DNA of 14,846 bases from a virus (lineage: Duplodnaviria; Heunggongvirae; Uroviricota; Caudoviricetes): IMG/VR virus record IMGVR_UViG_2703718772_000005; one strand, 5' to 3'. The notes under the pieces are model-generated. The model saw only the letters and a program-made list of their open reading frames with translations. It searched no databases and was not told where the DNA came from. Positions within the stretch are counted from its first letter, which is position 1; each line of letters begins with the position of its first letter. Below, in pieces: positions 1 through 12,652 of this stretch. The position numbers were made by a program, and so were the translations under genes.

Positions 1-182
1 CAATAAAAAGTGAAGAACTCCTGAGCAGCGCACCATCCTTCATAACCACCCCAATACAAGATGATAACATTGGCTTACAACTCATAACAAAAGCAATTCA
101 ATGCCGTCAAGAGGTTACAGGCTAAAAAAACTCTATTACATAGCAGCCAGCATGTTTACCGTACAAGTACAACTCAGGGCAT

Positions 183-208
183 AAAAAAAACCCACTCGGC
201 AGCGGGTT
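183..208 (-). terminator. Intrinsic terminator downstream of Q (tR'-like)
   Basis: Minus-strand transcript forms AACCCGCU-GCCG-AGUGGGUU hairpin (GC-rich stem with one G-U pair, tetraloop) running into a U8 tract (complement of the A-run 183-190). Sits about 50 nt downstream of the candidate late promoter. Confidence 0.6.
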
Positions 209-242
209 TATACATTTTTTACAACATACCAAATTTGCATGA

Positions 243-271
243 AGTATATGGCTTTTAATCCAGTTTTGCAA
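243..271 (-). promoter_or_regulatory. Candidate sigma70 late promoter (PR'-like), overlapping the Q stop codon
   Basis: On the minus strand: -35 TTGCAA (266-271), 17-nt spacer, -10 TATACT (243-248), A/T-rich upstream. Position immediately 3' of a Q-like gene and 5' of an intrinsic terminator matches the lambdoid PR'-qut-tR' layout. Confidence 0.45.
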
Positions 272-1028
272 TATTTTGCTGTAAAAATGCTGCCTTTTGT
301 TTTGAACGTGTTCTCGTCACAAGCAATAAAGCATCACTATCAAGCTGTAGAAAAATGTGCTTCATTGCAACCCAGCGTTCAGTAAATGTCTCGGACCAGT
401 TTTTTGTTGTCACTCCCACCAATGATGCCAGTGTCTGGTATTCATAGGCCTCACGCCCTGCAAGTTCGCTCTTCACATCCTGTGCAGCCAGCCAGATTAA
501 CGTCTTCAGGCGATCCAGTGTCTTACCTGCAATTTTTCTGTTACTTAACAAATCTTTAAACTCGCTCCATGCCCATTGCGTTATGGTGACCTGATGCCCC
601 CATCGAACGCTTTCGCTGTAACACCAAAGCAACCATGCTTTCTGATGTTCATCGAGAGACAAAACCGCGCGGCGCCATGAAGAGGTTGAGAATTCAACCG
701 GGCTGACCAAAGCAATGGATGAACCTTTTGCGTACGACTGCTTACCGGAAGTCGGCGTATTATCCAGCGTAATCATCTTGCCAGTTACCACATCCAGAAT
801 GCGCGGCTTCTTTCGTTTGTATGTACCAGTATCAAATTGTGCATGCTCCTGCCAGGCTTCGAGCTGGCCTTTCGTTGCTCCGTTCAAGTCAGCAGTAGCT
901 GCCATAAGTTGCTCACGAACATACTGTAAATATTGGGTATTCATGCAGTAAATCCTTTCTATATTTTGGCATAATTCTTCAACATTCGGTAATCGTTCAA
1001 AACCGAATCGGGGAAACGACATAAGCAC
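255..1028 (-). CDS. Q-like late-gene antiterminator (call mainly positional)
   Basis: 257-codon ORF directly downstream of ninH/rusA in the nin operon orientation, followed by a promoter plus terminator pair. I do not recognise which Q family it belongs to. Start is uncertain: track start is GTG at 1028; in-frame ATG at 1022 and ATG at 944 (AGGA 8 nt upstream) are alternatives. Confidence 0.55.
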   Translation of the reverse strand: MLMSFPRFGFERLPNVEELCQNIERIYCMNTQYLQYVREQLMAATADLNGATKGQLEAWQEHAQFDTGTYKRKKPRILDVVTGKMITLDNTPTSGKQSYAKGSSIALVSPVEFSTSSWRRAVLSLDEHQKAWLLWCYSESVRWGHQVTITQWAWSEFKDLLSNRKIAGKTLDRLKTLIWLAAQDVKSELAGREAYEYQTLASLVGVTTKNWSETFTERWVAMKHIFLQLDSDALLLVTRTRSKQKAAFLQQNIAKLD

Positions 1029-1135
1029 ACGAGCCCCCAGCGACAGCGAAGGAGTTCTGATATATAAGACTCAGACATCATTCATTCCCCGGTTCTCCAA
1101 TATCTGTTTCACTCATCATCCATAACTACCTGTAA

Positions 1136-1420
1136 TTGCCCCCCCCTTTTTTTGTAACAGTTCTTATATTGCTATATAGAATAGCCATTACTAATGCTTT
1201 TAAATTTAATAAAATAAAAATTATAAAAAACATAAAACACCACGCAAACACACTTAATAAAAACACCGTTACATTAAAAGATAATAAAAACCGCAATAAA
1301 AAACGAATAAATCAATTGTCTCACGCAATTATAAAACATCATATTGATTACGCACCTTGTATTACAAACTCATGTATGTAAAATACGCGCACCATTCAAA
1401 AAAAAGGAAGACAATAACAT
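1136..1420. promoter_or_regulatory. Strongly AT-rich divergent intergenic region between Q and the lpxR-like gene; candidate lpxR promoter
   Basis: Phased A-tracts (repeated aataaaaa-type motifs) suggest curved DNA. Candidate plus-strand promoter: -35 TTGTAT (1357-1362), 16-nt spacer, -10 TAAAAT (1379-1384); SD AAGGAAG about 10 nt before ATG 1421. The 81-aa ORF 1136..1381 is K/N-rich low complexity and probably not coding. Confidence 0.3.
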
Positions 1421-2380
1421 ATGAAAAAAAGTGTCATCGCTGGCGTCTTTATTGCTCTGTCATTTACCACGTGTTCAGCTATCGCGAACAGCCTTGCATT
1501 ATCATTAGCAAATGATGATGCAGGGAAGTTTCAACCAATACTTAATGATATTTATGGCAATAAACATGAAAACAGAGATGATTACTCACAAGGCTTATTT
1601 CTGGGATATAGCCACGATATCTCAGACTCGAGCCAATTATCTCTCCATATTGCGCAAGATATTTACTCTCCATCAGGCAGTAATAAAAGACACAACACAG
1701 CTGTAACTGGAGACAGAGCTTTTAGTGCATACACTCACACTGGTATTGAATGGAACTCCCTTGCGAATGACTGGATTCGCTATCGATTAGGTACTGACAT
1801 AGGTGTTGTTGGCCCCGACGCAGGCGGTCAGAAAGTACAAAATAAAGCTCATGAGATTATTGGGGCAGAAAAATATCATGCATGGGATGATCAAATAGAG
1901 AATCGCTACGGTTATACTGTAAAAGGGATGCTATCCATGACACCAAGTATGGATATTTTAGGTGCTAATGTTGGATTATACCCTGAAGTTTCTGCTGTTA
2001 CTGGAAACTTATTTCAATATGTAGCATATGGCGCAACCATTGCCATTGGTAATGATAAAACCTTCAATTCGGATAATGGCTTTGGTCTGCTGGCTCCCCG
2101 TGGTTTAATGCATATGTCCGATACAAGCGGATTCAAATACAAGATTTTTGCAGGTATGGAAAGACGAGATGTCAATCGCAACTATACTCTCGAAGGAAAA
2201 ACAATACAGACGAAACAAACAACAGTATCGCTAAACAAAACTGTTGATGAATATCAAGTTGGCGCAACAATTGGGTATGCACCTGTAGCCTTCACACTAG
2301 CATTTAATAAAGTAACATCAGAATTCAAGACAGGGGATGACTATTCATTTATAAATGGAGCAATCACCTTCTTTTTTTAA
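1421..2380 (+). CDS. lpxR: Outer-membrane beta-barrel, LpxR-family lipid A 3'-O-deacylase-like (prophage cargo gene)
   Basis: 319 aa, same length as Salmonella LpxR as I recall it. N-terminal signal peptide with AIA cleavage motif; C-terminal Phe (ITFFF) typical of OM barrels. If cleaved after Ala22, mature positions 9, 10, 34, 122 are N, D, S, H, matching my recollection of the reported LpxR active-site residues N9, D10, T34, H122. AT-rich and on the opposite strand to flanking phage genes. Confidence 0.7.
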   Translation: MKKSVIAGVFIALSFTTCSAIANSLALSLANDDAGKFQPILNDIYGNKHENRDDYSQGLFLGYSHDISDSSQLSLHIAQDIYSPSGSNKRHNTAVTGDRAFSAYTHTGIEWNSLANDWIRYRLGTDIGVVGPDAGGQKVQNKAHEIIGAEKYHAWDDQIENRYGYTVKGMLSMTPSMDILGANVGLYPEVSAVTGNLFQYVAYGATIAIGNDKTFNSDNGFGLLAPRGLMHMSDTSGFKYKIFAGMERRDVNRNYTLEGKTIQTKQTTVSLNKTVDEYQVGATIGYAPVAFTLAFNKVTSEFKTGDDYSFINGAITFFF

Positions 2381-2427
2381 CTGAATTGAATTCAATCAAA
2401 ATAACATAAGTCCAACAAAAACATAAA

Positions 2428-2462
2428 GTGCGAAATGAATGCCAGCTCCATTTATTTCGCAC
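2428..2462. terminator. Long hairpin between convergent lpxR and ninH; terminator-like, mainly for the minus strand
   Basis: GTGCGAAATGAATG / CATTTATTTCGCAC arms (14 bp, one G-U) around a 7-nt loop. On the minus strand it is followed by a U-rich tract (UUUAUGUUUUUGUUGG); on the plus strand by an A-rich tract, so weaker there. Confidence 0.5.
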
Positions 2463-2591
2463 TATAAAAGATTAAAAGTTGCAATAAAATAATAAAATGA
2501 CTCAGTTACGAAAACCAATAAACTGTGGCCAGTAGTGAGTCGCTCATCATCGGGCTTTTTGGCGAATGAAATTTAGCTACGCTTTCGAGTC

Positions 2592-2780
2592 TCATCGTCT
2601 TCCCCTCTTGCCCTGTTTGACCATCAGGACGCCGTTAACTATTACATGACGCTCGCCTTTGCTGTCTCGGTTGTACTTGAGCACTGTTCCTCTTGCGCAG
2701 GAAAGCATCCTCGCCACTTCGGTCTGATTGCCTCGTGTCTGGATAAGAAGCTCTGGTATCGTTTGAATTGTGGCGTTCAT
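2592..2780 (-). CDS. ninH: NinH-like protein
   Basis: 62 aa, resembles lambda NinH (IPxxL...GNQTEVAR...RGTV.KY motif). ATG overlaps the rusA stop as ATGA. Confidence 0.75.
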   Translation of the reverse strand: MNATIQTIPELLIQTRGNQTEVARMLSCARGTVLKYNRDSKGERHVIVNGVLMVKQGKRGRR

Positions 2781-3139
2781 GCGTTCTCCAGTTCGGTGAT
2801 TTTTATTCCAAGCCGTCCGCCTGGTACTTTCACACCACGAATTATGCGAATGTCATCGAATTGCTCGTCGTCTTCCGCAAATCCGGCATGGATAAGGGAG
2901 TCGAGTAAACCCTTCAGGATGTTATCTAGGTCGCGGCGGCGGGAGTCTGGAACGTCTGCGATTACTTTGATGCGGAGTCGTGATTTGGTGAAAATATCTA
3001 ACTTGAGTTGGTGGATGATTTGCTGAACGTCTTTTCGGTATTTCTGGCCTTTATCGCTGATGTAGTATTGGCTTCCCCGTCTTCGCCAGTAGGTATTCAC
3101 CGACGGCGGGTATGGAAGCACAAACTGATATTCGTTCAT
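2777..3139 (-). CDS. rusA: Holliday junction resolvase RusA
   Basis: 120 aa, clear similarity to E. coli RusA (LPxPPSxNxYxR, DRRRRDLDN, GGRL motifs). Start overlaps the ybcO stop. Confidence 0.9.
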   Translation of the reverse strand: MNEYQFVLPYPPSVNTYWRRRGSQYYISDKGQKYRKDVQQIIHQLKLDIFTKSRLRIKVIADVPDSRRRDLDNILKGLLDSLIHAGFAEDDEQFDDIRIIRGVKVPGGRLGIKITELENA

Positions 3140-3426
3140 GACTTAATCTTCCCCTCCTTCAGCAGTATCGCCTGCGTCCTGATCACGCCTTCGAGGTGGT
3201 AAAGTCTGGCGTCTTTGTTGTCGAGAATCCTTGTGCGTCGGTCGATCTCCGCGTGGCAGTCACTACAAGCCCATGCGCCGATCAGGTCGTCAGGCTTCAT
3301 CCCCGTTCCACAAATTCCAGCCATCCGGTAATGTGCCAGAACTGTAGTTTCAGGATTGCCATTGCATACGCCGTAAATACGTACCTGGCATTCTCTGCCG
3401 CGCGCTTCTTTGCGTAGGTTAGCCAT
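3136..3426 (-). CDS. ybcO: YbcO-like putative nuclease (DUF1364)
   Basis: 96 aa, strong resemblance to DLP12 YbcO (RGRECQVRI.GVCNGNPET.VLAH, CSxCHxEIDRRT). SD GGGAAGG upstream of the ATG. Confidence 0.8.
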   Translation of the reverse strand: MANLRKEARGRECQVRIYGVCNGNPETTVLAHYRMAGICGTGMKPDDLIGAWACSDCHAEIDRRTRILDNKDARLYHLEGVIRTQAILLKEGKIKS

Positions 3427-3631
3427 TTACCTTCCCTCGCAATTGAAGAATTGACTGAAGGTCTTTTTTAATAAATATGCGAGTGCGAATTGAGCAGTAG
3501 TTTTCCTTCATTCTGGCGTAGTAATAGTCCTTTCTTTGCTTAAGTTTGTTGGCATCCGCTGTCATCCAGTCTTTTACAGCAAACTTAATTAGCCAGCGGT
3601 GGCAGAGATACCATTTCAGGTAATCACTCAT
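3419..3631 (-). CDS. Hypothetical nin-region protein (70 aa), occupies the position of ninG in lambda
   Basis: ORF whose ATG lies 5 nt before the ninF stop (8-nt overlap) and whose stop overlaps the ybcO start. Basic, W/Y-rich; no family recognised. Confidence 0.45.
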   Translation of the reverse strand: MSDYLKWYLCHRWLIKFAVKDWMTADANKLKQRKDYYYARMKENYCSIRTRIFIKKDLQSILQLRGKVNG

Positions 3632-3800
3632 CGTCTTCTTCCTCGTACATTGAGCTATTCGGATCGCTCATCAGTTCTGCACAGCAGTGCTCACACACGT
3701 GAACTTCCAGCACATGCAGCTTCTGACCGCAGTTAGCGCACGTTAAAGCTCGCTCGACGCTTTCTTTCTGGTATTGAAGGGATTGGGATGGGCTAAGCAT
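3624..3800 (-). CDS. ninF: NinF-like small zinc-ribbon protein (58 aa, below the ORF-track cutoff)
   Basis: Hand translation gives [58 protein letters not shown], which matches lambda NinF as I recall it. Two Cys pairs (CxxC ... CxxCC) and an acidic tail. ATG overlaps the stop of the upstream gene. Confidence 0.8.
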   Translation of the reverse strand: MLSPSQSLQYQKESVERALTCANCGQKLHVLEVHVCEHCCAELMSDPNSSMYEEEDDE

Positions 3801-4165
3801 TATTGGATTCTCTGCATCATGAGAAAGACAATCATGGCGGCGCGAAGGGGATTTTCATGTATAGCTCGCTTAGATTTACAGTAGGCCACACCGCGTGCAC
3901 CCCACTCGTCTTCATCGAGATTGATAATGCTAATCCTGTATTTTTCAATAATCGGCCATGAGTCTGCTGGGTTTGCGCATGGGTTAAAGGATCCGCGCTC
4001 AACTTCTACTTCAACTGCGTCTCCGTTTACAATGTCTCCCTCAAATGAGACAAACACCATATCGCCATTCTCACCTTCTTTGTAATCCGGCGATCCGTTA
4101 TGAATGGCTTCGAATACCGCCACGTTAATTTCAAAATCACTTAACTGTGAATAATCCATTGTCAT
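3800..4165 (-). CDS. Hypothetical nin-region protein (NinX-like position), about 121 aa
   Basis: Track ORF 3800..4201 begins at GTG. The ATG at 4163-4165 forms an ATGA overlap with the ninE stop, consistent with the coupling pattern of the operon; ATG at 4157-4159 is an alternative. Acidic protein, family not recognised with certainty. Confidence 0.55.
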
Positions 4166-4338
4166 TTCCTCGCACGATGTCTTAGCCACCGGATATCCCA
4201 CAGGTGAGCCGTGTAGTTGAAGGTTTTTACGTCAGATTCTTTTGGGATTGGCTTGCGTTTATTTCTGGAGCGTTTCGTTGGAAGGTATTTGCAGTTTTCG
4301 CAGATGATGTCGGTGATACTTCGTCGCTGTCGTCTCAT
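4162..4338 (-). CDS. ninE: NinE-like protein (58 aa, below the ORF-track cutoff)
   Basis: Hand translation gives [61 protein letters not shown] overlaps the ninB stop (ATGA) and its stop overlaps the next start (ATGA). Confidence 0.8.
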
Positions 4339-4745
4339 TCGTACCTCCTGTCGGTAAATCTGACACCATGACCAATAGCCCAGGCTGTTGTGTACTCGAT
4401 AAGACTTGCCATACGCTTCACACTCATCTGCGCGCTGCTTTCGCGAATGTTGACGTATTCGCCTTCAAGCCCGGGAAAAACATCAGCTTCCTGTTTTGTT
4501 GCCACTGCATGACCGCTGATCAACAAAACCTTCCATTGTTCTGGTTTTAACCATTTGCCGCACCATTGAACCTGACGAGCGATATCCGCCAGCATCGCGT
4601 GAAATTTTGCGTTCTGGTCAAGGTTGCGCTTGTAGTCAGTAATGCGGATGGTGACTGGCTTGTCTTTATCGAGTGGTGTTGCGAGGATGGCATTTATTGC
4701 AGCTTGCTGTTGTTGCTTAGTTCGGAGGAAGATTGTTTGCTTCAT
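4335..4745 (-). CDS. ninB: NinB (Orf-family recombination mediator)
   Basis: 136 aa, similar to lambda NinB (N-terminal MK..., LDQN, W.GKWL motifs as recalled). First recognisable nin gene of the operon. Confidence 0.85.
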
Positions 4746-5079
4746 CGAAATTCTTCTCTTTAATTCCAGCGGCTCTGATAGCTTTCATTACTGCAATTAC
4801 CGTTTTGTCTCTCCCATCCTCATAACCCATCGCATAAGCACCTTCTTCACCATCTTTCCAAAAGTCGTCATTCGATTCGGGCCAGTCAATATCCAGTTCA
4901 ATAGCTGCTCGCGATGCCTGCCACGTTTGCCAGTGGCCTTGAACATCGTCCATCACGTATTGACCACCAATATCACCACTGCCAATTTCATGGTGATTTT
5001 CAGGGTAACGGATAAGGTCTGAGGATTCGCCTCCACGTCGCAACCAACTTTCTTCAAACTGCTTTCTTGATTCGTCCAT
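4717..5079 (-). CDS. Hypothetical acidic W-rich protein (120 aa)
   Basis: ORF with SD GAGGG about 10 nt upstream of ATG 5079; its 3' end overlaps the ninB start by 29 nt. No family recognised. Confidence 0.5.
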   Translation of the reverse strand: MDESRKQFEESWLRRGGESSDLIRYPENHHEIGSGDIGGQYVMDDVQGHWQTWQASRAAIELDIDWPESNDDFWKDGEEGAYAMGYEDGRDKTVIAVMKAIRAAGIKEKNFDEANNLPPN

Positions 5080-5096
5080 CGATACTTACCCTCAGT

Positions 5097-5303
5097 TCAA
5101 CTCACAAAACTCCACGCCATTTTTGCTACAGCGACAGGCATAACACCGATAATCACCCACAGGAAAATGCTACCGAAAAGCACACCCACCAGGTCTTTAC
5201 CTTCGCCTACCAACCGGACAAAACTGCTGGCAACAACAATGAACGTCGCCACCATCCACATAGCACCGAGAATCCTCAATGCAGAGAAAATTAACTCAGC
5301 CAC
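5097..5303 (-). CDS. Small hydrophobic protein, two predicted transmembrane segments (68 aa)
   Basis: GTG start with a very strong SD (GGGGGAGGG, 6-nt spacing). Two about 25-residue hydrophobic stretches separated by a short EGKD loop. Lies directly downstream of an intrinsic terminator. Confidence 0.4.
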   Translation of the reverse strand: MAELIFSALRILGAMWMVATFIVVASSFVRLVGEGKDLVGVLFGSIFLWVIIGVMPVAVAKMAWSFVS

Positions 5304-5318
5304 GATTTACCCTCCCCC

Positions 5319-5350
5319 AAATAAAAAGGCCTGCGATTACCAGCAGGCCT
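5319..5350 (-). terminator. Intrinsic terminator between the 96-aa and 68-aa genes
   Basis: Minus-strand RNA AGGCCUGC-UGGUAAUC-GCAGGCCU (8-bp GC-rich stem) followed by UUUUAUUU; 26 nt downstream of the 96-aa gene stop. Confidence 0.55.
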
Positions 5351-5375
5351 GTTATTAGCTCAGTGATGTAGATGG

Positions 5376-5666
5376 TCATTGCCTTACCTCCATAAGCGCC
5401 CTATTAATAAACGCCGTCATTGGATTTGCACATCCCCACCCCGTACCATCTGGATTTCTTTTAATTGGCTCCTTCTTCACTTTGCGTTTTGCATAAATAA
5501 CCGTCTTCCACTTACGCTCAACAACACTCAAATGTCCTTGTTTCACCATATGCCTTGCTGCTTGAGCGATTCTGTTATTTGGTATTCCGGTGATCAGTGC
5601 TAATTCATGTGGGGAGAATTGTTCATGAGTTTTCAGATATTCCAGGATGATTTCTTTTCCAGTCAC
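5376..5666 (-). CDS. Hypothetical DNA-binding protein (possible winged helix), 96 aa
   Basis: GTG start with SD AGGAG 7 nt upstream and an in-frame stop 4 codons upstream. Central segment (ELALITGIPNNRIAQAARHMVKQGHL) looks like a helix-turn-helix; basic C-terminal half. First gene on the minus strand after the rearrangement junction. Confidence 0.55.
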   Translation of the reverse strand: MTGKEIILEYLKTHEQFSPHELALITGIPNNRIAQAARHMVKQGHLSVVERKWKTVIYAKRKVKKEPIKRNPDGTGWGCANPMTAFINRALMEVRQ

Positions 5667-5694: not shown

Positions 5695-6288
5695 ACGCAT
5701 CTGAAACTGCAGACTGCGCAGGATTCAGACAATGGATTTTCGGCGCTTGAACAGGCGCTGCTGCGGTATATCGCCGCCGGTCTTGGCGTTTCCTACGAAC
5801 AGTTGTCCCGGGATTACTCGAAGGTCAGTTATTCAAGTGCCCGCGCCTCCGCCAATGAGTCGTGGCGCTATTTTATGGGACGACGAAAATTTATTGCGTC
5901 CCGGCTGGCCACGCAGATGTTTTCCTGCTGGCTGGAAGAGGCACTTCTTCGGGGGATTATTCGTCCGCCACGGGCGCGTTTTGATTTTTATCAGGCGCGA
6001 TCAGCCTGGTCACGGGCTGAGTGGATTGGAGCCGGAAGAATGGCCATTGACGGGCTCAAGGAAGTCCAGGAATCAGTGATGCGCATTGAGGCCGGACTGA
6101 GCACGTATGAGAAAGAGCTGGCGCTGATGGGCGAGGATTATCAGGACATTTTCCGCCAGCAGGTCAGGGAATCTGCTGAGCGACAAAAAGCCGGACTCTC
6201 ACGTCCGGTGTGGATAGCGCAGGCGTATGAGCAGCAGATAGCGGAGAGTCGCAGGCCGGAAGAGGAGACAACACCACGTGAGACGTAA
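5695..6288 (+). pseudogene. B: Portal protein B, 5'-truncated remnant (C-terminal about 195 codons only)
   Basis: Open frame from stop at 5692-5694 to 6288, no ATG before the TTG at 5803. Sits immediately upstream of and overlapping gene C, as the portal gene does in lambda; about 1 kb of expected upstream coding is replaced by minus-strand nin-module genes. Confidence 0.7.
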
Positions 6289-7783
6289 TCTTTCACACAT
6301 TATTGCCGCAGCATTCAATGAACCGCTGCTTCTGGAGCCCGCCTATGCGCGGGTTTTCTTTTGCGCGCTCGGGCGCGAGATGGGGGCATCAAGTCTTTCG
6401 GTACCACAACAGCAGGTACAGTTTGATGCTCCCGGAATGCTGGCTGAAACGGACGAGTACATGGCCGGAGGTAAACGACCGGCCCGTGTTTACCGGGTGG
6501 TGAACGGTATTGCTGTACTGCCGGTGACCGGCACGCTGGTGCACCGGCTGGGGGGTATGCGGCCATTTTCCGGAATGACAGGCTATGACGGCATTGTCGC
6601 CTGTCTTCAGCAGGCAATGGCGGATAGCCAGGTGCGGGGCGTACTGCTGGACATTGACAGTCCGGGCGGGCAGGCCGCCGGCGCGTTTGACTGCGCTGAC
6701 ATGATTTACCGCCTCCGTCAGCAGAAGCCGGTCTGGGCACTGTGCAATGACACGGCCTGCTCTGCAGCCATGCTGCTGGCGTCGGCCTGCTCCCGACGGC
6801 TGGTTACCCAGACATCCCGTATCGGCTCCATTGGCGTGATGATGAGCCATGTCAGCTATGCCGGTCATCTGGCGCAGGCCGGTGTTGATATCACGCTGAT
6901 TTACTCAGGGGCGCACAAGGTGGATGGCAATCAGTTTGAAGCGTTGCCGGCAGAGGTTCGCCAGGACATGCAACAGCGCATTGATGCGGCGCGCCGGATG
7001 TTTGCTGAAAAAGTAGCGATGTATACCGGTCTGTCTGTTGATGCTGTCACGGGAACAGAGGCCGCCGTTTTTGAAGGTCAGTCCGGCATTGAGGCCGGGC
7101 TGGCGGATGAATTAATCAATGCGTCGGATGCCATCAGTGTGATGGCCACGGCGCTGAACAGTAATGTCAGAGGAGGCACTATGCCGCAATTAACTGCAAC
7201 GGAAGCCGCCGCGCAGGAGAACCAGCGAGTGATGGGGATCCTGACATGCCAGGAAGCGAAAGGACGTGAACAGCTTGCCACGATGCTGGCAGGACAACAG
7301 GGCATGAGCGTTGAACAGGCCCGGGCGATTCTGGCCGCGGCGGCACCACAGCAGCCGGTGGCATCCGCGCAGAGTGAAGCCGATCGCATTATGGCGTGTG
7401 AAGAAGCGAAAGGTCGTGAACAACTGGCGGCAACGCTGGCGGCGATGCCGGAGATGACGGTGGAAAAAGCCCGCCCGATCCTGGCTGCTTCACCGCAGGC
7501 GGATGCCGGACCCTCACTCCGTGATCAGATCATGGCACTGGATGAGGCAAAAGGGGCTGAGGCGCAGGCTGAACAGCTGGCTGCCTGCCCGGGAATGACT
7601 GTGGAGAGCGCCCGGGCTGTGCTGGCTGCGGGATCAGGTAAGGCAGAACCGGTCTCTGCATCCACAACCGCCATGTTTGAACGCATCATGGCGAACCATT
7701 CACCGGCAGCGGTACAGGGTGGCGTGCCACAGACGTCAGCAGACGGTGATGCGGACGTGAAAATGCTCATGGCCATGCCATGA
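6278..7783 (+). CDS. C: Head maturation protease/scaffold protein C (lambda gpC-like)
   Basis: 501 aa. N-terminal two-thirds strongly resemble lambda gpC (FNEPL.LEPAYARVFFCAL, GIAVLPV.GTLV, GMTGY.GI, VWAL.ND, SIGVMM.H, ITLIYSG.HKVDGN). GTG start with SD GAGGAG upstream; overlaps the portal stop. Confidence 0.9.
   Translation: MRRNLSHIIAAAFNEPLLLEPAYARVFFCALGREMGASSLSVPQQQVQFDAPGMLAETDEYMAGGKRPARVYRVVNGIAVLPVTGTLVHRLGGMRPFSGMTGYDGIVACLQQAMADSQVRGVLLDIDSPGGQAAGAFDCADMIYRLRQQKPVWALCNDTACSAAMLLASACSRRLVTQTSRIGSIGVMMSHVSYAGHLAQAGVDITLIYSGAHKVDGNQFEALPAEVRQDMQQRIDAARRMFAEKVAMYTGLSVDAVTGTEAAVFEGQSGIEAGLADELINASDAISVMATALNSNVRGGTMPQLTATEAAAQENQRVMGILTCQEAKGREQLATMLAGQQGMSVEQARAILAAAAPQQPVASAQSEADRIMACEEAKGREQLAATLAAMPEMTVEKARPILAASPQADAGPSLRDQIMALDEAKGAEAQAEQLAACPGMTVESARAVLAAGSGKAEPVSASTTAMFERIMANHSPAAVQGGVPQTSADGDADVKMLMAMP
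7181..7783 (+). CDS. Nu3: Nu3-like scaffolding protein from an internal in-frame start within C
   Basis: In-frame ATG at 7181 preceded by AGGAGG (7171-7176). In lambda the scaffold Nu3 is translated from an internal start in the C frame (established knowledge); the exact start here is inferred. Confidence 0.5.
   Translation: MPQLTATEAAAQENQRVMGILTCQEAKGREQLATMLAGQQGMSVEQARAILAAAAPQQPVASAQSEADRIMACEEAKGREQLAATLAAMPEMTVEKARPILAASPQADAGPSLRDQIMALDEAKGAEAQAEQLAACPGMTVESARAVLAAGSGKAEPVSASTTAMFERIMANHSPAAVQGGVPQTSADGDADVKMLMAMP
7226..7631 (+). repeat. Three diverged tandem repeats (about 36-40 codons each) in the C/Nu3 scaffold domain
   Basis: Protein-level repeats RVMGILTCQEAKGREQLATMLAGQQGMSVEQARAILAAA / RIMACEEAKGREQLAATLAAMPEMTVEKARPILAAS / QIMALDEAKGAEAQAEQLAACPGMTVESARAVLAAG, starting near 7226, 7381 and 7523. 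DNA copies are diverged, so the duplications are old. Confidence 0.7.
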
Positions 7784-7819
7784 AGCCAGTGCTGACCATC
7801 AACAGGAGGTTTTTACAAT

Positions 7820-8167
7820 ATGGTGACGAAAACTATCACTGAACAGCGTGCGGAAATACGTATTTTTGCCGGTAATGATCCGGCTCATACCGCCACAGGC
7901 AGCAGCGGGATTTCCTCGGCAACACCGGCACTGACGCCCCTGATGCTGGATGAGGCCACCGGGAAACTGGTGGTCTGGGACGGACAAAAAGCCGGTAGTG
8001 CGGTTGGCATACTGGTACTGCCGCTTGAAGGCACAGAGACGGCGCTGACCTATTACAAGTCGGGGACCTTTGCGACGGAGGCAATCCGCTGGCCTGAAAG
8101 TGTGGATGAACACAAAAAGGCCAACGCCTTTGCCGGCAGTGCCCTGAGTCACGCGGCGCTGCCGTAA
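7820..8167 (+). CDS. D: Head decoration protein D (gpD-like)
   Basis: 115 aa, similar to lambda gpD (DPAHTAT, TPLMLD, KLV.WDG, AVGIL, YYKSGTF, TEAIRWPE, AFAG). SD AGGAGG upstream. Confidence 0.9.
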   Translation: MVTKTITEQRAEIRIFAGNDPAHTATGSSGISSATPALTPLMLDEATGKLVVWDGQKAGSAVGILVLPLEGTETALTYYKSGTFATEAIRWPESVDEHKKANAFAGSALSHAALP

Positions 8168-8175
8168 CACGTTAT

Positions 8176-8195
8176 CAGGCCACCGCGGTGGCCTG
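8176..8195 (+). other. Perfect GC-rich palindrome in the D-E intergenic region
   Basis: CAGGCCACC-GC-GGTGGCCTG followed by ACUGAUUUCUGAAUG; possible attenuator or RNA-stability hairpin. The U tract is weak for a terminator. Confidence 0.3.
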
Positions 8196-8224
8196 ACTGA
8201 TTTCTGAATGAAAGGAACTGATTT

Positions 8225-9253
8225 ATGGGATTGTTTACGACCCGCCAGTTACTCGGTTATACCGAACAAAAAGTGAAATTTCGTGCGCTGTTTCTGGAGC
8301 TGTTTTTCCGCCGTACGGTGAATTTCCATACCGAAGAGGTGATGCTGGACAAAATTACCGGAAAAACGCCGGTGGCGGCCTATGTTTCCCCGGTTGTTGA
8401 AGGAAAAGTGCTGCGTCATCGTGGTGGTGAAACCCGCGTGTTACGTCCGGGCTACGTCAAGCCGAAACACGAATTTAATTACCAGCAGGCGGTTGAGCGT
8501 CTTCCCGGTGAAGATCCGGCTCAGCTGAACGACCCGGCCTACCGTCGTCTGCGTATCATCACTGATAACCTCAAACAGGAAGAGCACGCCATTGTCCAGG
8601 TGGAAGAAATGCAGGCGGTGAATGCCGTGCTGTATGGCAAATACACGATGGAAGGAGACCAGTTCGAGAAAATTGAGGTCGATTTTGGCAGGTCGACGAA
8701 GAATAACATCACTCAGGGTAGTGGTAAGGAGTGGTCAAAACAGGATCGTGACACGTTCGATCCTACACATGATCTTGACCTCTACTGCGACCAGGCCAGC
8801 GGTCTTGTGAATATTGCCATTATGGACGGTACCGTCTGGCGTCTGCTGAATGGCTTTAAATTGTTCCGCGAAAAACTGGATACCCGTCGCGGCTCTAATT
8901 CGCAACTCGAAACAGCGGTGAAAGACCTGGGCGCGGTGGTGTCCTTCAAAGGGTATTACGGCGATCTGGCCATTGTGGTGGCAAAAACGTCTTATGTGGC
9001 AGAGGACGGTACCGAAAAACGTTATCTGCCTGAGGGCTCGCTGGTCCTGGGGAATACGGCAGCAGAGGGCATTCGTTGCTATGGTGCCATTCAGGATGCG
9101 CAGGCGTTGTCCGAAGGTGTGGTGGCCTCTTCCCGTTATCCGAAACACTGGCTGACGGTAGGGGATCCCGCCCGTGAATTTACCATGACGCAGTCCGCGC
9201 CGCTGATGGTGTTGCCGGACCCGGATGAGTTTGTGGTGGTACAGGTGAAATAA
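8225..9253 (+). CDS. E: Major capsid protein E (gpE-like)
   Basis: 342 aa, extensive similarity to lambda gpE along its length (YVSP.V.G, PGYVKPKHE, DPAYRR.RII, VEEMQAV.AVL.GKYTM, NNITQ, TRRGSNS.LETAVKDLG, YPK.W.T.GDPAREFTM.QSAPLM, DPDEFV.VQ). SD AAGGAA upstream. Confidence 0.95.
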   Translation: MGLFTTRQLLGYTEQKVKFRALFLELFFRRTVNFHTEEVMLDKITGKTPVAAYVSPVVEGKVLRHRGGETRVLRPGYVKPKHEFNYQQAVERLPGEDPAQLNDPAYRRLRIITDNLKQEEHAIVQVEEMQAVNAVLYGKYTMEGDQFEKIEVDFGRSTKNNITQGSGKEWSKQDRDTFDPTHDLDLYCDQASGLVNIAIMDGTVWRLLNGFKLFREKLDTRRGSNSQLETAVKDLGAVVSFKGYYGDLAIVVAKTSYVAEDGTEKRYLPEGSLVLGNTAAEGIRCYGAIQDAQALSEGVVASSRYPKHWLTVGDPAREFTMTQSAPLMVLPDPDEFVVVQVK

Positions 9254-9260
9254 TCCGTGA

Positions 9261-9290
9261 GCGGGGGCGAAATGCCCCCGTGTCTTTTTT
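9261..9290 (+). terminator. Intrinsic terminator/attenuator just after the major capsid gene
   Basis: CGGGGGC-GAAAU-GCCCCCG hairpin followed by UGUCUUUUUU, immediately 3' of the E stop and 5' of the FI RBS. Confidence 0.55.
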
Positions 9291-9304
9291 CACAGGGGGA
9301 TGAT

Positions 9305-9679
9305 ATGGCAACGAAAGAGCAAAATCTGAAACGGCTTGATGAACTGGCCCTGATTCTGGGGCGTGAGCCGGATATATCCGGGAGTGCCGCAGAGATAGCG
9401 CAGCGGGTGGCAGAATGGGAAGAGGAAATGCAGTCATCCGGCGATGATGTACAGGTTATGAATATGGATATCCGGGAGAGGGAAAACGCGGCTCATGATG
9501 TTCGTGAGGAAACATCCGGCGCGTTAACGCGCATCAGAGTTCTGACCTGCCTCCATCTCTGTGGCGTTGATGGTGAAACGGGGGAATCCGTTGAGCTTGC
9601 GGATGTTGGTCGGGTGATTCTGATTATGTCCTCAGATGCAAAAACACACGTTGATGGTGGAATGGCTGTTTATGCGTGA
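9305..9679 (+). CDS. FI: DNA-packaging protein FI (gpFI-like)
   Basis: ATG at 9305 with SD AGGGGGA upstream. The track ORF starts earlier (9257) but that region contains the terminator hairpin. Position between E and FII; acidic protein; similarity to lambda FI is weak. Confidence 0.7.
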   Translation: MATKEQNLKRLDELALILGREPDISGSAAEIAQRVAEWEEEMQSSGDDVQVMNMDIRERENAAHDVREETSGALTRIRVLTCLHLCGVDGETGESVELADVGRVILIMSSDAKTHVDGGMAVYA

Positions 9680-10025
9680 TTTTCAGAATGCCTTTGATGC
9701 CGCCCTTGCCGGGGTGGACAGTACGATTGTTGAAGTGATGGGCATCAGTGCGCAGTTCACCTCCGGTGCACAGCGTGGCGGCGAAGTTCAGGGGGTTTTT
9801 GACGATCCGGAGTCGCTGGGGTTTGCCAGTAGTGGGATCCGTATTGAAGGAAGCAGCCCGTCATTATTTGTGCGGACGGATACGGTTCGTGCCGTGCGGC
9901 GTGGTGACACGTTGACCATTAATGGTGAGACGTTCTGGGTGGATCGTGTTTCTCCGGATGACGGGGGCAGTTGTTATCTCTGGCTGAACCGTGGGCAACC
10001 ACCCGCAGTTAACCGGCGACGATAA
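9672..10025 (+). CDS. FII: Head-tail joining protein FII (gpFII-like)
   Basis: Starting at ATG 9672 gives 117 aa, strongly similar to lambda gpFII (F.NAFDAA, RGVFDDPE, VRVEGSSPSLFVRTD.VR..RRGDTLTI, FWVDRVSPDDGGSC.LWL.RG.PPAVNRRR). Overlaps the FI stop by 8 nt. Confidence 0.85.
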   Translation: MRDFQNAFDAALAGVDSTIVEVMGISAQFTSGAQRGGEVQGVFDDPESLGFASSGIRIEGSSPSLFVRTDTVRAVRRGDTLTINGETFWVDRVSPDDGGSCYLWLNRGQPPAVNRRR

Positions 10026-10039
10026 ACGCAGGGTGAATT

Positions 10040-10615
10040 ATGGCGATAAAAGGGCTTGATCAGGCGATTGAAAATCTGAGCCGGGTTCGTAAAAACGCCA
10101 TTCCGTCGGCTTCAGCAATGGCTATTAACCGCGTGGCTACAACGGCGATTAATCAGTCTTCATCACAGGTTGCCCGGGAGACCAGGGTGAGCCGGAAACT
10201 GGTAAAGGAACGGTCCAGACTGAAACGGGCGACGGTCAGAAATCCGAATGCCAGAATTATCGTTAACCGCGGTGATCTCCCTGCTATTAAGCTGGGGATC
10301 AGGATGCTTGGTCATCGTCCGAACAGCATACTTAAAGCCGGTCAGCATCGTTATCAGCGGGCATTCATCCAGCGATTAAATAATGGGCGCTGGCATGTTA
10401 TGCAACGTTTGCCAGAAGCCCGGTATGCGAAGGGCAATGACGATAAAGGAAGGAAAAAGCGTAATCGTCTTCCCATTCAGGTGGTTAAAATTCCGATGGC
10501 GGCCCCACTGAAGCAGGCTTTTGATGAGAACGTTAACCGTATCCGGCGAGAACGTCTGCCAAAAGAACTGGGCTATGCGTTGAAACAACAACTAAGGATT
10601 GTGATAAAGCGATGA
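10040..10615 (+). CDS. Z: Tail completion protein Z (gpZ-like)
   Basis: 191 aa, resembles lambda gpZ (MAIKGLD.AI.NL start as recalled); canonical position after FII; stop overlaps the U start (ATGA). Confidence 0.85.
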   Translation: MAIKGLDQAIENLSRVRKNAIPSASAMAINRVATTAINQSSSQVARETRVSRKLVKERSRLKRATVRNPNARIIVNRGDLPAIKLGIRMLGHRPNSILKAGQHRYQRAFIQRLNNGRWHVMQRLPEARYAKGNDDKGRKKRNRLPIQVVKIPMAAPLKQAFDENVNRIRRERLPKELGYALKQQLRIVIKR

Positions 10616-11007
10616 AACATACTGATATCCGTGCTGCAGTGCTGGATGCACTCGAGCAGCATGAACACGGGGCGACGCTGTTTGATGGTCGCCCCGCTGT
10701 TTTTGATGAGGCGGATTTTCCGGCAATTGCTGTTTATCTCACCGGCGCTGAATACACGGGCGAAGCGCTGGACAGCGATACCTGGCAGGCGGAGCTGCAT
10801 ATTGAAGTTTTCCTGCCTGCTCAGGTGCCGGATTCAGAGCTGGATTCGTGGATGGAAAGCCGGATTTATCCGGCGATGAGTGCGATCCCGGCACTGTCAG
10901 GCCTGATTACCACGATGGTTACGCAGGGCTATGAGTATCGTCGTGATGACGATATGGCGTTATGGAGTTCTGCTGATTTGACTTATTCCATTACATACGA
11001 GATGTGA
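10612..11007 (+). CDS. U: Tail terminator protein U (gpU-like)
   Basis: 131 aa, the same length as lambda gpU; canonical position between Z and V. Confidence 0.85.
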
Positions 11008-11014
11008 GGACGAT

Positions 11015-11767
11015 ATGCCAACACCAAATCCTCTGGCACCGGTAAAAGGTGCCGGTACCACCCTGTGGGTTTATAACGGTCAGGGTGATGCCTATGCAAA
11101 CCCGTTGTCAGACGATAACTGGCAGCGACTGGCACAGGTAAAGGATCTGACGCCGGGCGAGATGACGGCAGAACCCTACGATGATAACTACCTGGATGAT
11201 GAAGACGCGGACTGGACTGCGACCGGGCAGGGGCAGAAGTCTGCAGGAGATACCAGTTTTACGCTGGCCTGGAAACCGGGAGAAGAAGGTCAGAAAGGGC
11301 TTATAGGCTGGTTTGAAAGCGGGGATGTGCGGGCCTATAAAATCCGTTTCCCGAACGGCACGGTGGATGTGTTCCGTGGCTGGGTCAGCAGTATCGGTAA
11401 GGCCGTAACGGCGAAGGAAGTGATCACCCGTACGGTGAAAGTGACCAACGTGGGTAAACCTTCTGTGGCGGAAGAACGCAGCGAAATTACGCCGGTCAGT
11501 GCGATTAAGGTGACGCCGACATCCGGTACGGTGGCAAAAGGGAAAACAACCACCCTGACGGTTTCTTTTGAGCCGGAAAGTGCAACAGACAAGACGTTCA
11601 GAGCGGTTTCCGCCGATCCGTCGAAAGCCACCATTAGTGTGAAAGATATGACAATTACGGTAAACGGCGTGGCGACAGGTAAGGTGCAGATCCCTGTGGT
11701 GAGCGGAAATGGTCAGTTCGCCGCAGTGGCTGAAGTCACCGTTACTGAAGCGGGCGCTGCAGGGTAA
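11015..11767 (+). CDS. V: Major tail tube protein V (gpV-like) with C-terminal Ig-like domain
   Basis: 250 aa, strong similarity to lambda gpV ([103 protein letters not shown]); C-terminal T/V-rich segment typical of the Ig-like domain. Confidence 0.95.
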
Positions 11768-11780
11768 ACGGAGGTAATAC

Positions 11781-12212
11781 ATGTTTCTGAAAACCGAACA
11801 ATTTGAATATAACGGTGTGTCCGTCACGCTTTCCGAGCTGTCTGCGCTGCAGCGTATCGAGCATCTTGCCCTGCTGAAACGACGGGCAGAACAGGCTGAA
11901 GCCAGCGGTAACCTGCAGGTGAGCGTGGAAGACCTTGTCAGAACCGGCGCGTTTCTGGTGGCGATGTCCCTGTGGCATAACCATCCACAGAAAACGGAGT
12001 CACCGTCAATGAATGAGGCCGTGATGAAGATAGAGCAGGAAGTGCTCACCACCTGGCCTGCCGATGCCATTGCCCGGGCGGAAGACGTGGTGTTGTGCCT
12101 GTCCGGGATGATCGAAGCTGTTCGTCCGGATACTGATATTACTGAAGTGGCGAAAAATAACACGCTGACTGATGATGATTTTTCTGCGGGAAAGTCTTCG
12201 ACGGCGAGCTGA
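11781..12212 (+). CDS. G: Tail assembly chaperone G (gpG-like)
   Basis: 143 aa, strong similarity to lambda gpG (MFLKTE.FE.NGV.VTLSELSALQRIEHLAL.KR.AEQAE..., AFLVAMSLWHNHPQKT). SD GGAGG upstream. Confidence 0.9.
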   Translation: MFLKTEQFEYNGVSVTLSELSALQRIEHLALLKRRAEQAEASGNLQVSVEDLVRTGAFLVAMSLWHNHPQKTESPSMNEAVMKIEQEVLTTWPADAIARAEDVVLCLSGMIEAVRPDTDITEVAKNNTLTDDDFSAGKSSTAS

Positions 12213-12652
12213 ACTTTGCCCTCAGACTGGCGCGTGAGATGGGGAGACCCGACTGGCGCGCCATGCTTGCCGGGATGACATCCACCGAATATGCCGACTG
12301 GCACCGTTTTTACCGCACGCATTATTTTCAGGATACCCAGCTGGATATGCATTTTTCCGGGCTGACGTACGCTGTACTCAGCCTGTTTTTTTGCGATCCG
12401 GATATGCATCCCTCTGATTTCAGTCTGCTTGTCCCCCGGCATGAGGAAGAGCAGGTGGAGAGGCCGGATGAGGACAAAATGCTGATGCAGAAAGCGGCAG
12501 GACTTGCCGGAGGCGTCCGGTTCGGTGGGGACGGAGGGCGCGATATTTTATCGTCTGCGGATGTGGCGGATGTCATGGTGGATGATGCCGCATTAATGAT
12601 GGCTTCAGCGGGGATTTCCGGAGGTGTGAGATATGTCCCAGCCGGTTGGTGA
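11781..12652 (+). CDS. T: G-T fusion chaperone made by programmed -1 ribosomal frameshift (gpGT-like)
   Basis: Slippery heptamer G GGA AAG at 12188-12194 in the G frame, 6 codons before the G stop. The -1 frame is open from there to the TGA at 12650-12652 (track ORF 12239..12652 is the distal part). Matches the lambda G/GT arrangement. Confidence 0.8.
12188..12194 (+). other. Programmed -1 frameshift slippery site GGGAAAG
   Basis: Heptamer read directly; in-frame as G GGA AAG in gene G. Confidence 0.8.

What the first reader, a model, noticed from the sequence alone, without database searches (positions are those of the whole stretch)
1421..2380. Prophage cargo gene encoding an LpxR-like lipid A 3'-O-deacylase (lysogenic conversion candidate)
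An AT-rich, oppositely oriented gene inserted between ninH and Q encodes a signal-peptide-bearing outer-membrane barrel. Its length, C-terminal Phe, and the N/D/S/H residues at mature positions 9/10/34/122 fit the Salmonella LpxR active site as I recall it. A phage-carried lipid A deacylase would modify host LPS and could alter innate immune recognition or phage receptor properties. Phage-borne lpxR has, to my recollection, been reported in enterohaemorrhagic E. coli, so this is probably a known class rather than new.
Basis: partly seen in the sequence, partly recalled or inferred. Interest (0 to 1): 0.65.

Follow-up and report, generated by a model that had tools for sequence, protein, structure and literature searches.

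The report
Known prophage-borne lipid A deacylase LpxR

Summary
The ORF is real: 1421..2380 (+), 319 aa. It matches Pfam LpxR (PF09982) end to end at E=7e-40. It matches the solved Salmonella LpxR structure 3FID at E=4e-153, with 74% identity and one 1-residue gap. The published active-site and Ca2+ residues are conserved: N9, D10, Q118, H122, E128, and Ser for Thr at 34. A signal peptide (AIA|N) and the C-terminal FFF are present.

The gene lies antisense between ninH plus a 20-codon lambda-Q remnant and ylcG plus a Q82-type Q. It is AT-rich: 39% GC, with a 29.5% GC upstream spacer, against 48% for the nin genes.

It is 960/960 identical to lpxR (ECs_0814) of prophage Sp3 in E. coli O157:H7 Sakai. 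Later papers attribute 3'-O-deacylase activity and Pch/Ler control to the lpxR of that strain (Ogawa 2018, read only through citing papers). Viable phage 434 encodes the identical protein. The gene occurs in 622 of 5426 complete E. coli genomes, and RefSeq already annotates it as LpxR.

Verdict: observation confirmed, interpretation supported, already known, low interest. The host prophage is rearranged and defective.

The parts
1421..2380 (+). lpxR coding sequence. It encodes a 319-aa precursor: signal peptide residues 1-22, then a 297-aa mature outer-membrane beta-barrel lipid A 3'-O-deacylase.
   Evidence: ORF. Pfam LpxR E=6.8e-40, covering profile positions 2-320 of 323. PDB 3FID E=3.6e-153, 74% identity. 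960/960 nt identical to Sakai ECs_0814 lpxR. Protein identical to the phage 434 'outer membrane beta-barrel lipid A deacylase'.
1421..1486 (+). Signal peptide coding region (MKKSVIAGVFIALSFTTCSAIA, predicted cut after AIA).
   Evidence: Read from the sequence. The mature 3FID chain aligns from residue 24. The offset of 22 agrees with the published numbering 9/31 and 122/144. No predictor was run.
1082..1420 (+). AT-rich upstream spacer (29.5% GC) that presumably holds the lpxR promoter and regulatory sites. AGGA at 1405-1408 is the likely ribosome-binding site.
   Evidence: GC content. Phage 434 annotates the RBS at the same AGGA. Only one weak sigma-70-like match was found on the + strand (1154-1182), no more than chance gives, so the promoter is not located. 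Homology to phage 82 (rus-orf45-Q, no lpxR) stops at about 1090.
2427..2463 (.). 15-bp hairpin 46 nt after the lpxR stop. It probably forms the 3' end of the lpxR mRNA, and may be a terminator for the opposing phage early transcript, since the U-rich tail is on the - strand only.
   Evidence: Fold energy about -18 to -20 kcal/mol; z = -3.5 (+ strand) and -2.3 (- strand). The consensus terminator scan did not report it. Function is inferred.
2506..2595 (-). Remnant of a lambda-type Q gene. The first 20 codons (MRLESVAKFHSPKSPMMSDS) are followed by unrelated sequence and a stop. It marks the right-hand recombination scar of the lpxR/Q82 module.
   Evidence: Translation. Annotated as an incomplete antitermination protein in NC_013364.1 and as a lambda Q N-terminal fragment in phage 434.
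959..1081 (-). ylcG-like small gene, part of the Q82-type late-regulator module that travels with lpxR.
   Evidence: RefSeq annotation of the identical sequence. Phage 434 annotation. Phage 82 orf45 homology. No Pfam hit.
255..944 (-). Q82-type antitermination protein Q. To express it, the phage early transcript must read antisense through lpxR.
   Evidence: Pfam Phage_antiter_Q E=1.7e-91. RefSeq start at 944. 87-90% identical to the Q genes of phage 82 and PhiR47_2.
2592..2780 (-). ninH, the right-hand neighbour. The block shared with phage 434 and Sakai Sp3 ends at 2606.
   Evidence: Pfam Phage_NinH E=2e-24. blastn block limits.

Best explanation
The ORF is lpxR, a prophage cargo ('moron') gene.

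The enzyme (inferred from the family). Its product is exported by a Sec signal peptide and inserted into the outer membrane as a 12-stranded beta-barrel. There it acts as a Ca2+-dependent esterase on lipid A. His122 activates a water molecule. Asn9, Asp10, Ser34 (Thr in Salmonella), Gln118 and Glu128 form the Ca2+/oxyanion site. The ester bond at the 3' position is cleaved, which removes the 3'-acyloxyacyl unit (two acyl chains). Hexa-acylated lipid A becomes tetra-acylated, and this form stimulates TLR4/MD-2 poorly. The catalytic roles are as I recall them from Rutten et al. 2009, which could not be read here.

The cassette (shown here). A cassette of about 1.45 kb, roughly 1091..2535, sits antisense in the delayed-early operon of a lambdoid prophage. 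On one side are ninH and a lambda-Q stub. On the other are ylcG and a Q82-type Q. The cassette has its own AT-rich upstream region, so the lysogen expresses it independently of phage lytic genes.

Regulation (from the literature). In LEE-positive E. coli the virulence regulators Pch and Ler activate it.

Shown here: gene, family, conserved residues, context, and identity to the characterised EHEC gene. Taken from the literature: enzymatic activity, regulation and immune effect. Inferred: promoter position, the role of the hairpin, and H-NS-type silencing of the AT-rich region.
For: - Family: Pfam LpxR full-length hit. 3FID match at E=3.6e-153 with 74% identity and one 1-residue gap.
- Active site: residues conserved, matching those published for the EHEC protein.
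- Identity to the studied gene: 960/960 nt identical to Sakai lpxR ECs_0814 in prophage Sp3. Reviews and follow-up papers citing Ogawa 2018 report its 3'-O-deacylase activity, Pch/Ler dependence and effect on phagocytosis and TLR4 signalling. It also belongs to the LEE modulon in transcriptome data and co-occurs with LEE across genomes.
- Cassette limits: phage 82 homology ends at about 1090, and lambda-Q homology ends after codon 20 at about 2535.
- Mobility: the 2.6-kb block 1..2606 is 99.4-99.7% identical in viable phage 434 and in Sp3, but the upstream nin genes differ (ninI/pphA there, ninH here).
- Composition: foreign to the phage backbone.
- Non-phage relative: a 73%-identical chromosomal homologue in Citrobacter lies between purB and phoPQ and is also 39% GC. 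This fits capture of an enterobacterial chromosomal gene by a phage.
Against: - Nothing contradicts the assignment.
- No enzymatic or expression data can be produced here, and the primary papers (Ogawa 2018; Rutten 2009) were not held in the library. Their results are cited second-hand.
- No convincing sigma-70 promoter or canonical terminator was found by consensus scans.
- Position 34 is Ser rather than the Thr of the crystallised enzyme. This is conservative and is also the residue in the EHEC gene reported as active.
- From my own knowledge, Salmonella LpxR is largely latent in the membrane under standard growth. Presence of the gene therefore does not guarantee modified lipid A.
Confidence: 0.96

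Rival explanations
1. The gene is an intact but functionally silent passenger. The protein is made and inserted but stays latent, as Salmonella LpxR does under laboratory growth, or it is not transcribed in this O111-type background. In that case it has no effect on the host's lipid A.
For: - No promoter above chance level was found upstream.
- The prophage around it is decayed: a truncated portal gene, an inverted early region, and IS elements in the identical genomes.
- Latency of Salmonella LpxR is established knowledge (Reynolds et al. 2006, from memory).
Against: - The ORF is intact and >=99% identical in 620 complete genomes of many serotypes, even though the surrounding prophages decay. 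That pattern argues for selection.
- The identical gene in O157 Sakai is reported to deacylate lipid A and to be induced with the LEE.
Confidence: 0.1
2. The main beneficiary is the phage rather than the host. Remodelling of LPS by LpxR would alter adsorption of competing phages (superinfection exclusion) or outer-membrane properties at lysis. Immune evasion would then be a side effect.
For: - The identical gene is carried by a viable temperate phage, 434.
- Lambdoid phages often carry outer-membrane cargo genes at similar positions. Lom, for example, lies in the same Sp3 prophage.
Against: - LpxR acts on lipid A acyl chains buried in the membrane, not on the core or O-antigen sugars that phages usually bind.
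- No data here or in the papers read link LpxR to phage adsorption.
- Among 50,697 phage records only the two phage 434 records carry the gene, so it is not a common phage strategy.
- Its co-regulation and co-occurrence with LEE point to a host-virulence role.
Confidence: 0.05
3. The ORF is a different kind of outer-membrane protein, such as a porin, an adhesin or a PagL-like 3-O-deacylase, that only resembles LpxR.
For: None found. The NCBIfam library gave no hit, which only shows that it holds no model for this family.
Against: - 74% identity across the whole mature chain to the crystallised LpxR, with every active-site residue aligned.
- LpxR was the only Pfam family matched at E<=0.01.
Confidence: 0.01

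Closest known systems
lpxR (ECs_0814) of lambda-like prophage Sp3, E. coli O157:H7 Sakai. This is the EHEC lipid A 3'-O-deacylase studied by Ogawa et al. 2018 and called vaccine antigen MC001 in PMC6863877.
   Same: - The coding sequence is identical (960/960 nt).
- The 2.6-kb module of Q82-type Q, ylcG, lpxR and the lambda-Q stub is 99.7% identical.
- Both prophages sit next to ybhC, at the lambda attachment region.
   Different: - The gene upstream of the module is ninH/rusA here, and pphA (ninI) in Sp3.
- Here the early region is inverted relative to the head and tail genes and abuts a truncated portal gene.
Escherichia phage 434 gene CPT_434_65, 'outer membrane beta-barrel lipid A deacylase LpxR' (OL657226)
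   Same: - The protein is identical.
- DNA is 99.4% identical over window 1..2606.
- The antisense placement between a lambda-Q N-terminal fragment and ylcG/Q82-like Q is the same.
   Different: - Phage 434 is a complete, viable temperate phage. The window is a decayed prophage.
- The nin genes upstream differ.
Salmonella enterica serovar Typhimurium LpxR (PDB 3FID)
   Same: - Same family and same precursor length (319 aa), with 74% identity.
- N9, D10, Q118, H122 and E128 are conserved, as is the C-terminal FFF.
   Different: - Ser replaces Thr at mature position 34.
- From my own knowledge, the Salmonella gene is chromosomal and not in a prophage.
- Regulation differs: Pch/Ler in EHEC, according to papers citing Ogawa 2018.
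Plasmid-borne LpxR-family genes of E. coli (e.g. WP_032220516.1 on pJNE23-001_1)
   Same: Same family, about 80% amino-acid identity, also on a mobile element in E. coli.
   Different: - A distinct allele (83% DNA identity).
- It lies among IS remnants on plasmids of about 100 kb or more, not in a phage.

Membership tests
LpxR lipid A 3'-O-deacylase (Pfam PF09982) | Full-length match to the family profile above the curated threshold | tested here: met
   137.4 bits against a cut-off of 26, E=6.8e-40. Residues 10-318 cover profile positions 2-320 of 323.
LpxR lipid A 3'-O-deacylase (Pfam PF09982) | Homology to the solved 12-stranded beta-barrel of Salmonella LpxR over the whole mature chain | tested here: met
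   3FID_A at E=3.6e-153. Residues 24-319 align to chain residues 2-296 with 220/296 identical and one 1-residue gap. The fold itself was not modelled; it is inferred from 74% identity.
LpxR lipid A 3'-O-deacylase (Pfam PF09982) | Active-site and Ca2+-site residues Asn9, Asp10, Thr34, Gln118, His122 and Glu128 (mature numbering) | tested here: met
   N31, D32, S56, Q140, H144 and E150 align to them. T34 is replaced by Ser, as in the published EHEC enzyme.
LpxR lipid A 3'-O-deacylase (Pfam PF09982) | Export and outer-membrane insertion signals: a cleavable Sec signal peptide and a C-terminal aromatic beta-signal | tested here: met
   The N-terminus has KK, a hydrophobic core and AIA|N. The C-terminus is ITFFF. 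This was judged by eye and by the start of the alignment to the mature chain, not by a predictor.
LpxR lipid A 3'-O-deacylase (Pfam PF09982) | Ca2+-dependent removal of the 3'-acyloxyacyl group of lipid A | not testable with these tools
   Papers citing Ogawa et al. 2018 report this for the nucleotide-identical Sakai gene. The primary paper could not be read.
Lambdoid phage 'moron' (independently expressed cargo gene) | An extra gene between conserved phage genes, absent from related phages and of deviating base composition | tested here: met
   - Phage 82 has rus-orf45-Q without lpxR, and its homology stops at about 1090.
- Many lambdoid phages have ninH directly followed by Q.
- GC is 39% in the ORF and 29.5% upstream, against 48% in the nin genes.
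Lambdoid phage 'moron' (independently expressed cargo gene) | Own promoter and terminator | tested here: inconclusive
   The antisense orientation demands its own promoter. However, the consensus scan found only one weak + strand site upstream of the gene (1154-1182), no more than chance gives, and no canonical terminator. A stable hairpin follows the stop codon.

The most novel reading that the evidence does not exclude
The antisense placement could couple virulence regulation to prophage development.

The phage early transcript must read about 1.4 kb antisense through lpxR to reach ylcG and Q. Pch/Ler-driven lpxR transcription could therefore collide with Q expression and damp it. In the other direction, induction of the prophage would shut lpxR off. 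The hairpin at 2427..2463, whose U-rich tail is on the phage-transcript strand, would act as the insulator.

Second point: the classic laboratory phage 434 carries the identical gene. Its lysogens may therefore have remodelled lipid A, which nobody appears to have looked at.
Probability: 0.08. Interest if true: 0.45.

Novelty: already known. Interest (0 to 1): 0.1.

Why it matters
LpxR converts hexa-acyl lipid A, a strong TLR4 agonist, to a tetra-acyl form. In attaching-and-effacing E. coli it is switched on together with the type III secretion system. It is therefore a genuine phage-delivered immune-evasion factor, and it has been proposed as a vaccine antigen (PMC6863877). All of this is already in the literature and in RefSeq annotation.

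For this scan, the value of the result is as a positive control. A reader working from raw sequence identified the gene, its catalytic residues and its status as a known class correctly.

Tried and rejected
- NCBIfam gave no hit. That library has no model for this family, so this is not evidence against the assignment.
- Rfam found nothing in the window at gathering thresholds. A permissive search of 1..2700 gave only a sub-threshold STnc240 match at 179..248 (28 bits against a gathering score of 55, E=0.21). A 2026 preprint reports LpxR and a Q-family gene (Pfam PF03589; the window's Q is PF06323) within 10 kb of more than 98% of PasD sRNA genes. No PasD sRNA was identified inside the window.
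- I tested whether the core sRNA MicF, which I recall as a regulator of Salmonella lpxR, has a predicted pairing site here. I took MicF from MG1655 and ran RNAduplex against positions -120..+300 of lpxR. The best duplexes were no better than dinucleotide shuffles: 34 of 300 shuffles matched or beat the full-length RNA, and 92 of 300 the seed. Rejected as unsupported.
- The consensus promoter and terminator scan of 900..2800 gave no more than chance, so the lpxR promoter could not be located.
The taxonomic spread of the family was therefore not mapped.
- The primary papers (Rutten 2009, PMC2644146; Ogawa 2018, pmid 29112299) are not held.
- No paper linking phage 434 to LpxR was found.
- Structure prediction and the large protein-database searches were deliberately not run. 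74% identity to a crystal structure and 100% identity to a characterised gene already settle the question.

Full report
**Observation**

The window holds an ORF at exactly 1421..2380 on the + strand (ATG start, 319 aa). All neighbouring genes are on the - strand and are standard lambdoid delayed-early genes. In window order from high to low coordinates they are:
- NinB 4335..4745
- NinE 4162..4338
- NinX 3800..4201
- NinF 3624..3800
- YbcO-like nuclease 3136..3426
- RusA 2777..3139
- NinH 2592..2780
- then, beyond the ORF, YlcG 959..1081 and a Q82-type antiterminator Q 255..944

It is AT-rich. The ORF is 39.4% GC and the 339-bp spacer upstream of it is 29.5%. The nin genes are 48.0% and the whole window is 51.4%.

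**What it is**

The protein matches Pfam PF09982 (LpxR) from end to end: 137 bits against a cut-off of 26, E=6.8e-40. It matched no other family at E<=0.01.

Against all PDB chains it matches a single sequence, Salmonella LpxR (3FID), at E=3.6e-153. Residues 24-319 align to chain residues 2-296 with 220/296 identities (74%) and one 1-residue gap.

From that alignment, the residues at Salmonella mature positions 9, 10, 34, 118, 122 and 128 (N, D, T, Q, H, E) correspond to N31, D32, S56, Q140, H144 and E150 in the precursor. PMC6863877 published the same list, with the same Thr-to-Ser difference at position 34, for the EHEC protein it calls MC001/LpxR.

The N-terminus MKKSVIAGVFIALSFTTCSAIA|NS has the form of a Sec signal peptide. 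The chain ends in ITFFF, the aromatic C-terminus typical of outer-membrane barrels. I had no signal-peptide predictor, so that point rests on reading the sequence and on where the mature crystallised chain starts.

**Identity with known genes**

- The 1.5 kb around the ORF is 100% identical in many complete E. coli O111 genomes, where RefSeq calls the gene 'lipid A deacylase LpxR family protein' (WP_000750155.1).
- The ORF alone occurs in 622 of 5426 complete E. coli genomes, with a median of one copy. In 620 of them it is at least 99% identical. These include O157:H7, O145, O26, O103, O111, O121, O55:H7 and O80 strains.
- In O157:H7 Sakai it is lpxR/ECs_0814, annotated 'lipid A 3'-O-deacylase', inside 'prophage Sp3, lambda-like phage' next to ybhC. 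The window's ORF is 960/960 nt identical to it.
- Later papers attribute several findings to Ogawa et al. 2018 (Cell Microbiol 20:e12806) on the lpxR of that strain: 3'-O-deacylase activity, transcription together with the LEE requiring Pch and Ler, and stronger inflammatory and phagocytic responses to an lpxR mutant. I could not read the primary paper, so these points are second-hand.
- lpxR also falls in the Ler/LEE modulon in an independent transcriptome analysis. It co-occurs with LEE across bovine and human isolates.
- Among 50,697 phage records, only the two records of the classic temperate phage 434 encode the protein, and there it is 100% identical. It is annotated 'outer membrane beta-barrel lipid A deacylase LpxR'.

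**Anatomy of the cassette**

Window 1..2606 is one block, 99.4% identical to phage 434 and 99.7% identical to Sakai Sp3. To the right of 2606 the three elements differ: ninH/rusA here, ninI (pphA) in 434 and Sp3.

Inside the block, 2506..2595 (-) translates as MRLESVAKFHSPKSPMMSDS followed by unrelated residues and a stop. Both NC_013364.1 and the phage 434 record annotate this as an N-terminal fragment of a lambda-type Q.

On the left, homology to phage 82 runs from 255 to about 1090. Phage 82 has rus-orf45(ylcG)-Q and no lpxR.

The material specific to the lpxR insertion is therefore roughly 1091..2535, about 1.45 kb. It consists of an AT-rich leader, the ORF and a 3' spacer. This is the architecture of a lambdoid 'moron', joined to a Q82-type late-regulator module by recombination inside an older lambda-type Q.

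An AGGA at 1405-1408 is the likely ribosome-binding site; phage 434 annotates the same one.

Forty-six nucleotides after the stop codon lies a 15-bp hairpin at 2427..2463, with an energy of about -18 to -20 kcal/mol and z = -3.5. Its U-rich tail is on the - strand only. It may therefore stop non-antiterminated phage early transcripts before they run antisense into lpxR, as well as closing the lpxR mRNA. That is inference: the consensus scan reported no terminator, and it found no promoter above chance.

**Mechanism**

By membership in a well-characterised family, the mature protein should be a 12-stranded outer-membrane barrel that hydrolyses the 3' ester of lipid A in a Ca2+-dependent way. 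This releases the 3'-acyloxyacyl unit and turns hexa-acyl lipid A into a tetra-acyl species that activates TLR4/MD-2 poorly.

My sources for this are Reynolds et al. 2006 and Rutten et al. 2009 from memory (the latter could not be read), the residue roles summarised, and the immune consequence summarised.

The very AT-rich upstream spacer fits a gene that is silenced by default and de-repressed by Ler. No binding data were examined here.

**Origin**

A 73%-identical homologue in Citrobacter sp. ANG330 lies in a small chromosomal islet between purB and phoPQ, with no phage genes nearby. It is also 39% GC, against 49% for its surroundings.

A second E. coli allele, about 80% identical in protein, sits among IS remnants on plasmids of about 100 kb or more.

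The family has therefore entered E. coli on at least two kinds of mobile element. The low GC belongs to the gene family rather than to the phage.

**The prophage**

The nin and Q genes run leftward, while the head and tail genes run rightward from 5803. The head and tail genes include:
- S49 protease
- head decoration protein D
- major capsid protein E
- tail genes up to the start of the tape-measure gene

The first rightward ORF contains only the last 28 positions of the lambda portal profile. The element is therefore rearranged and cannot be a functional phage.

In every identical genome listed, a 1314-bp IS3-family element sits at the junction, window 5699/5700. In strain 11128 an IS1203 copy in the opposite orientation lies beyond the window's left end. 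This suggests IS-mediated inversion.

The window itself lacks the IS. I cannot tell whether its source strain lacks it or whether it was removed when the window was prepared.

**Verdict**

The only corrections are that Salmonella has Thr, not Ser, at position 34, and that the carrier here is a prophage remnant.

The gene is already known, annotated, experimentally characterised in an identical copy, and even evaluated as a vaccine antigen. Interest is low.

The only unexplored angle I see is possible transcriptional interference between lpxR and the Q transcript that must cross it. I rate that as unlikely to matter.

Noticed in passing
window 5699/5700 (junction between the nin-side genes and the portal fragment): Every 100%-identical genome listed matches the window in two pieces that span 1315 bp more than the window. 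In NC_013364.1 the extra DNA is a 1314-bp IS3-family (IS629/IS1203-like) element at exactly this point, which the window lacks. The flanks in that genome show no target-site duplication. Either the source strain lacks the IS or it was removed when the window was prepared.
   Followed up: partly
window 255-5666 (- strand) versus 5803-14846 (+ strand): The prophage is rearranged and defective. The early, nin and Q genes point away from the head and tail genes. The portal gene is reduced to its C-terminal end (Pfam Phage_portal_2 positions 327-354 only). In strain 11128 a second IS1203 in the opposite orientation lies next to a truncated lysozyme gene beyond the left end of the window, which suggests IS-mediated inversion.
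   Followed up: partly
window 2427-2463: There is a stable 15-bp hairpin 46 nt downstream of lpxR. Its U-rich tail lies on the - strand, the strand of the phage early transcript. It may be a terminator or insulator between the convergent transcripts. The consensus terminator scan did not detect it.
   Followed up: partly
window 2506-2595 (-): A stub of a lambda-type Q gene: 20 N-terminal codons, MRLESVAKFHSPKSPMMSDS, overlapping the ninH stop. It is left over from the recombination that brought in the lpxR/ylcG/Q82-type Q module.
   Followed up: yes
window 179-248 (-), just downstream of Q: A sub-threshold Rfam match to sRNA STnc240 (28 bits against a gathering score of 55, E=0.21). It overlaps the position where phage 434 annotates a terminator after Q. 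It is probably the short late-promoter leader and terminator region rather than an sRNA gene.
   Followed up: no
L006 4920-5879 (E. coli plasmid pJNE23-001_1) and 14 E. coli plasmid records in PLSDB: A second LpxR allele (about 80% protein and 83% DNA identity) is carried on E. coli plasmids of about 100-195 kb. On pJNE23-001_1 it lies among IS remnants and near an M91-family metallopeptidase gene. In ten of the PLSDB records the match covers only residues 1-269, so those copies may be truncated.
   Followed up: partly
L004 5995-6960 (Citrobacter sp. ANG330): A 73%-identical lpxR sits in a small low-GC chromosomal islet inserted between purB and phoPQ, with no phage genes nearby. Its placement next to the PhoPQ lipid A-remodelling regulators is striking.
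   Followed up: partly
window 1509-1559, inside lpxR (codons around Asn31-Asp32-Asp33): The 5' end of the core sRNA MicF is complementary to AAUGAUGAU in the codons for the catalytic N-D-D motif. The predicted duplex is no better than with shuffled targets, so this is probably chance.
   Followed up: yes
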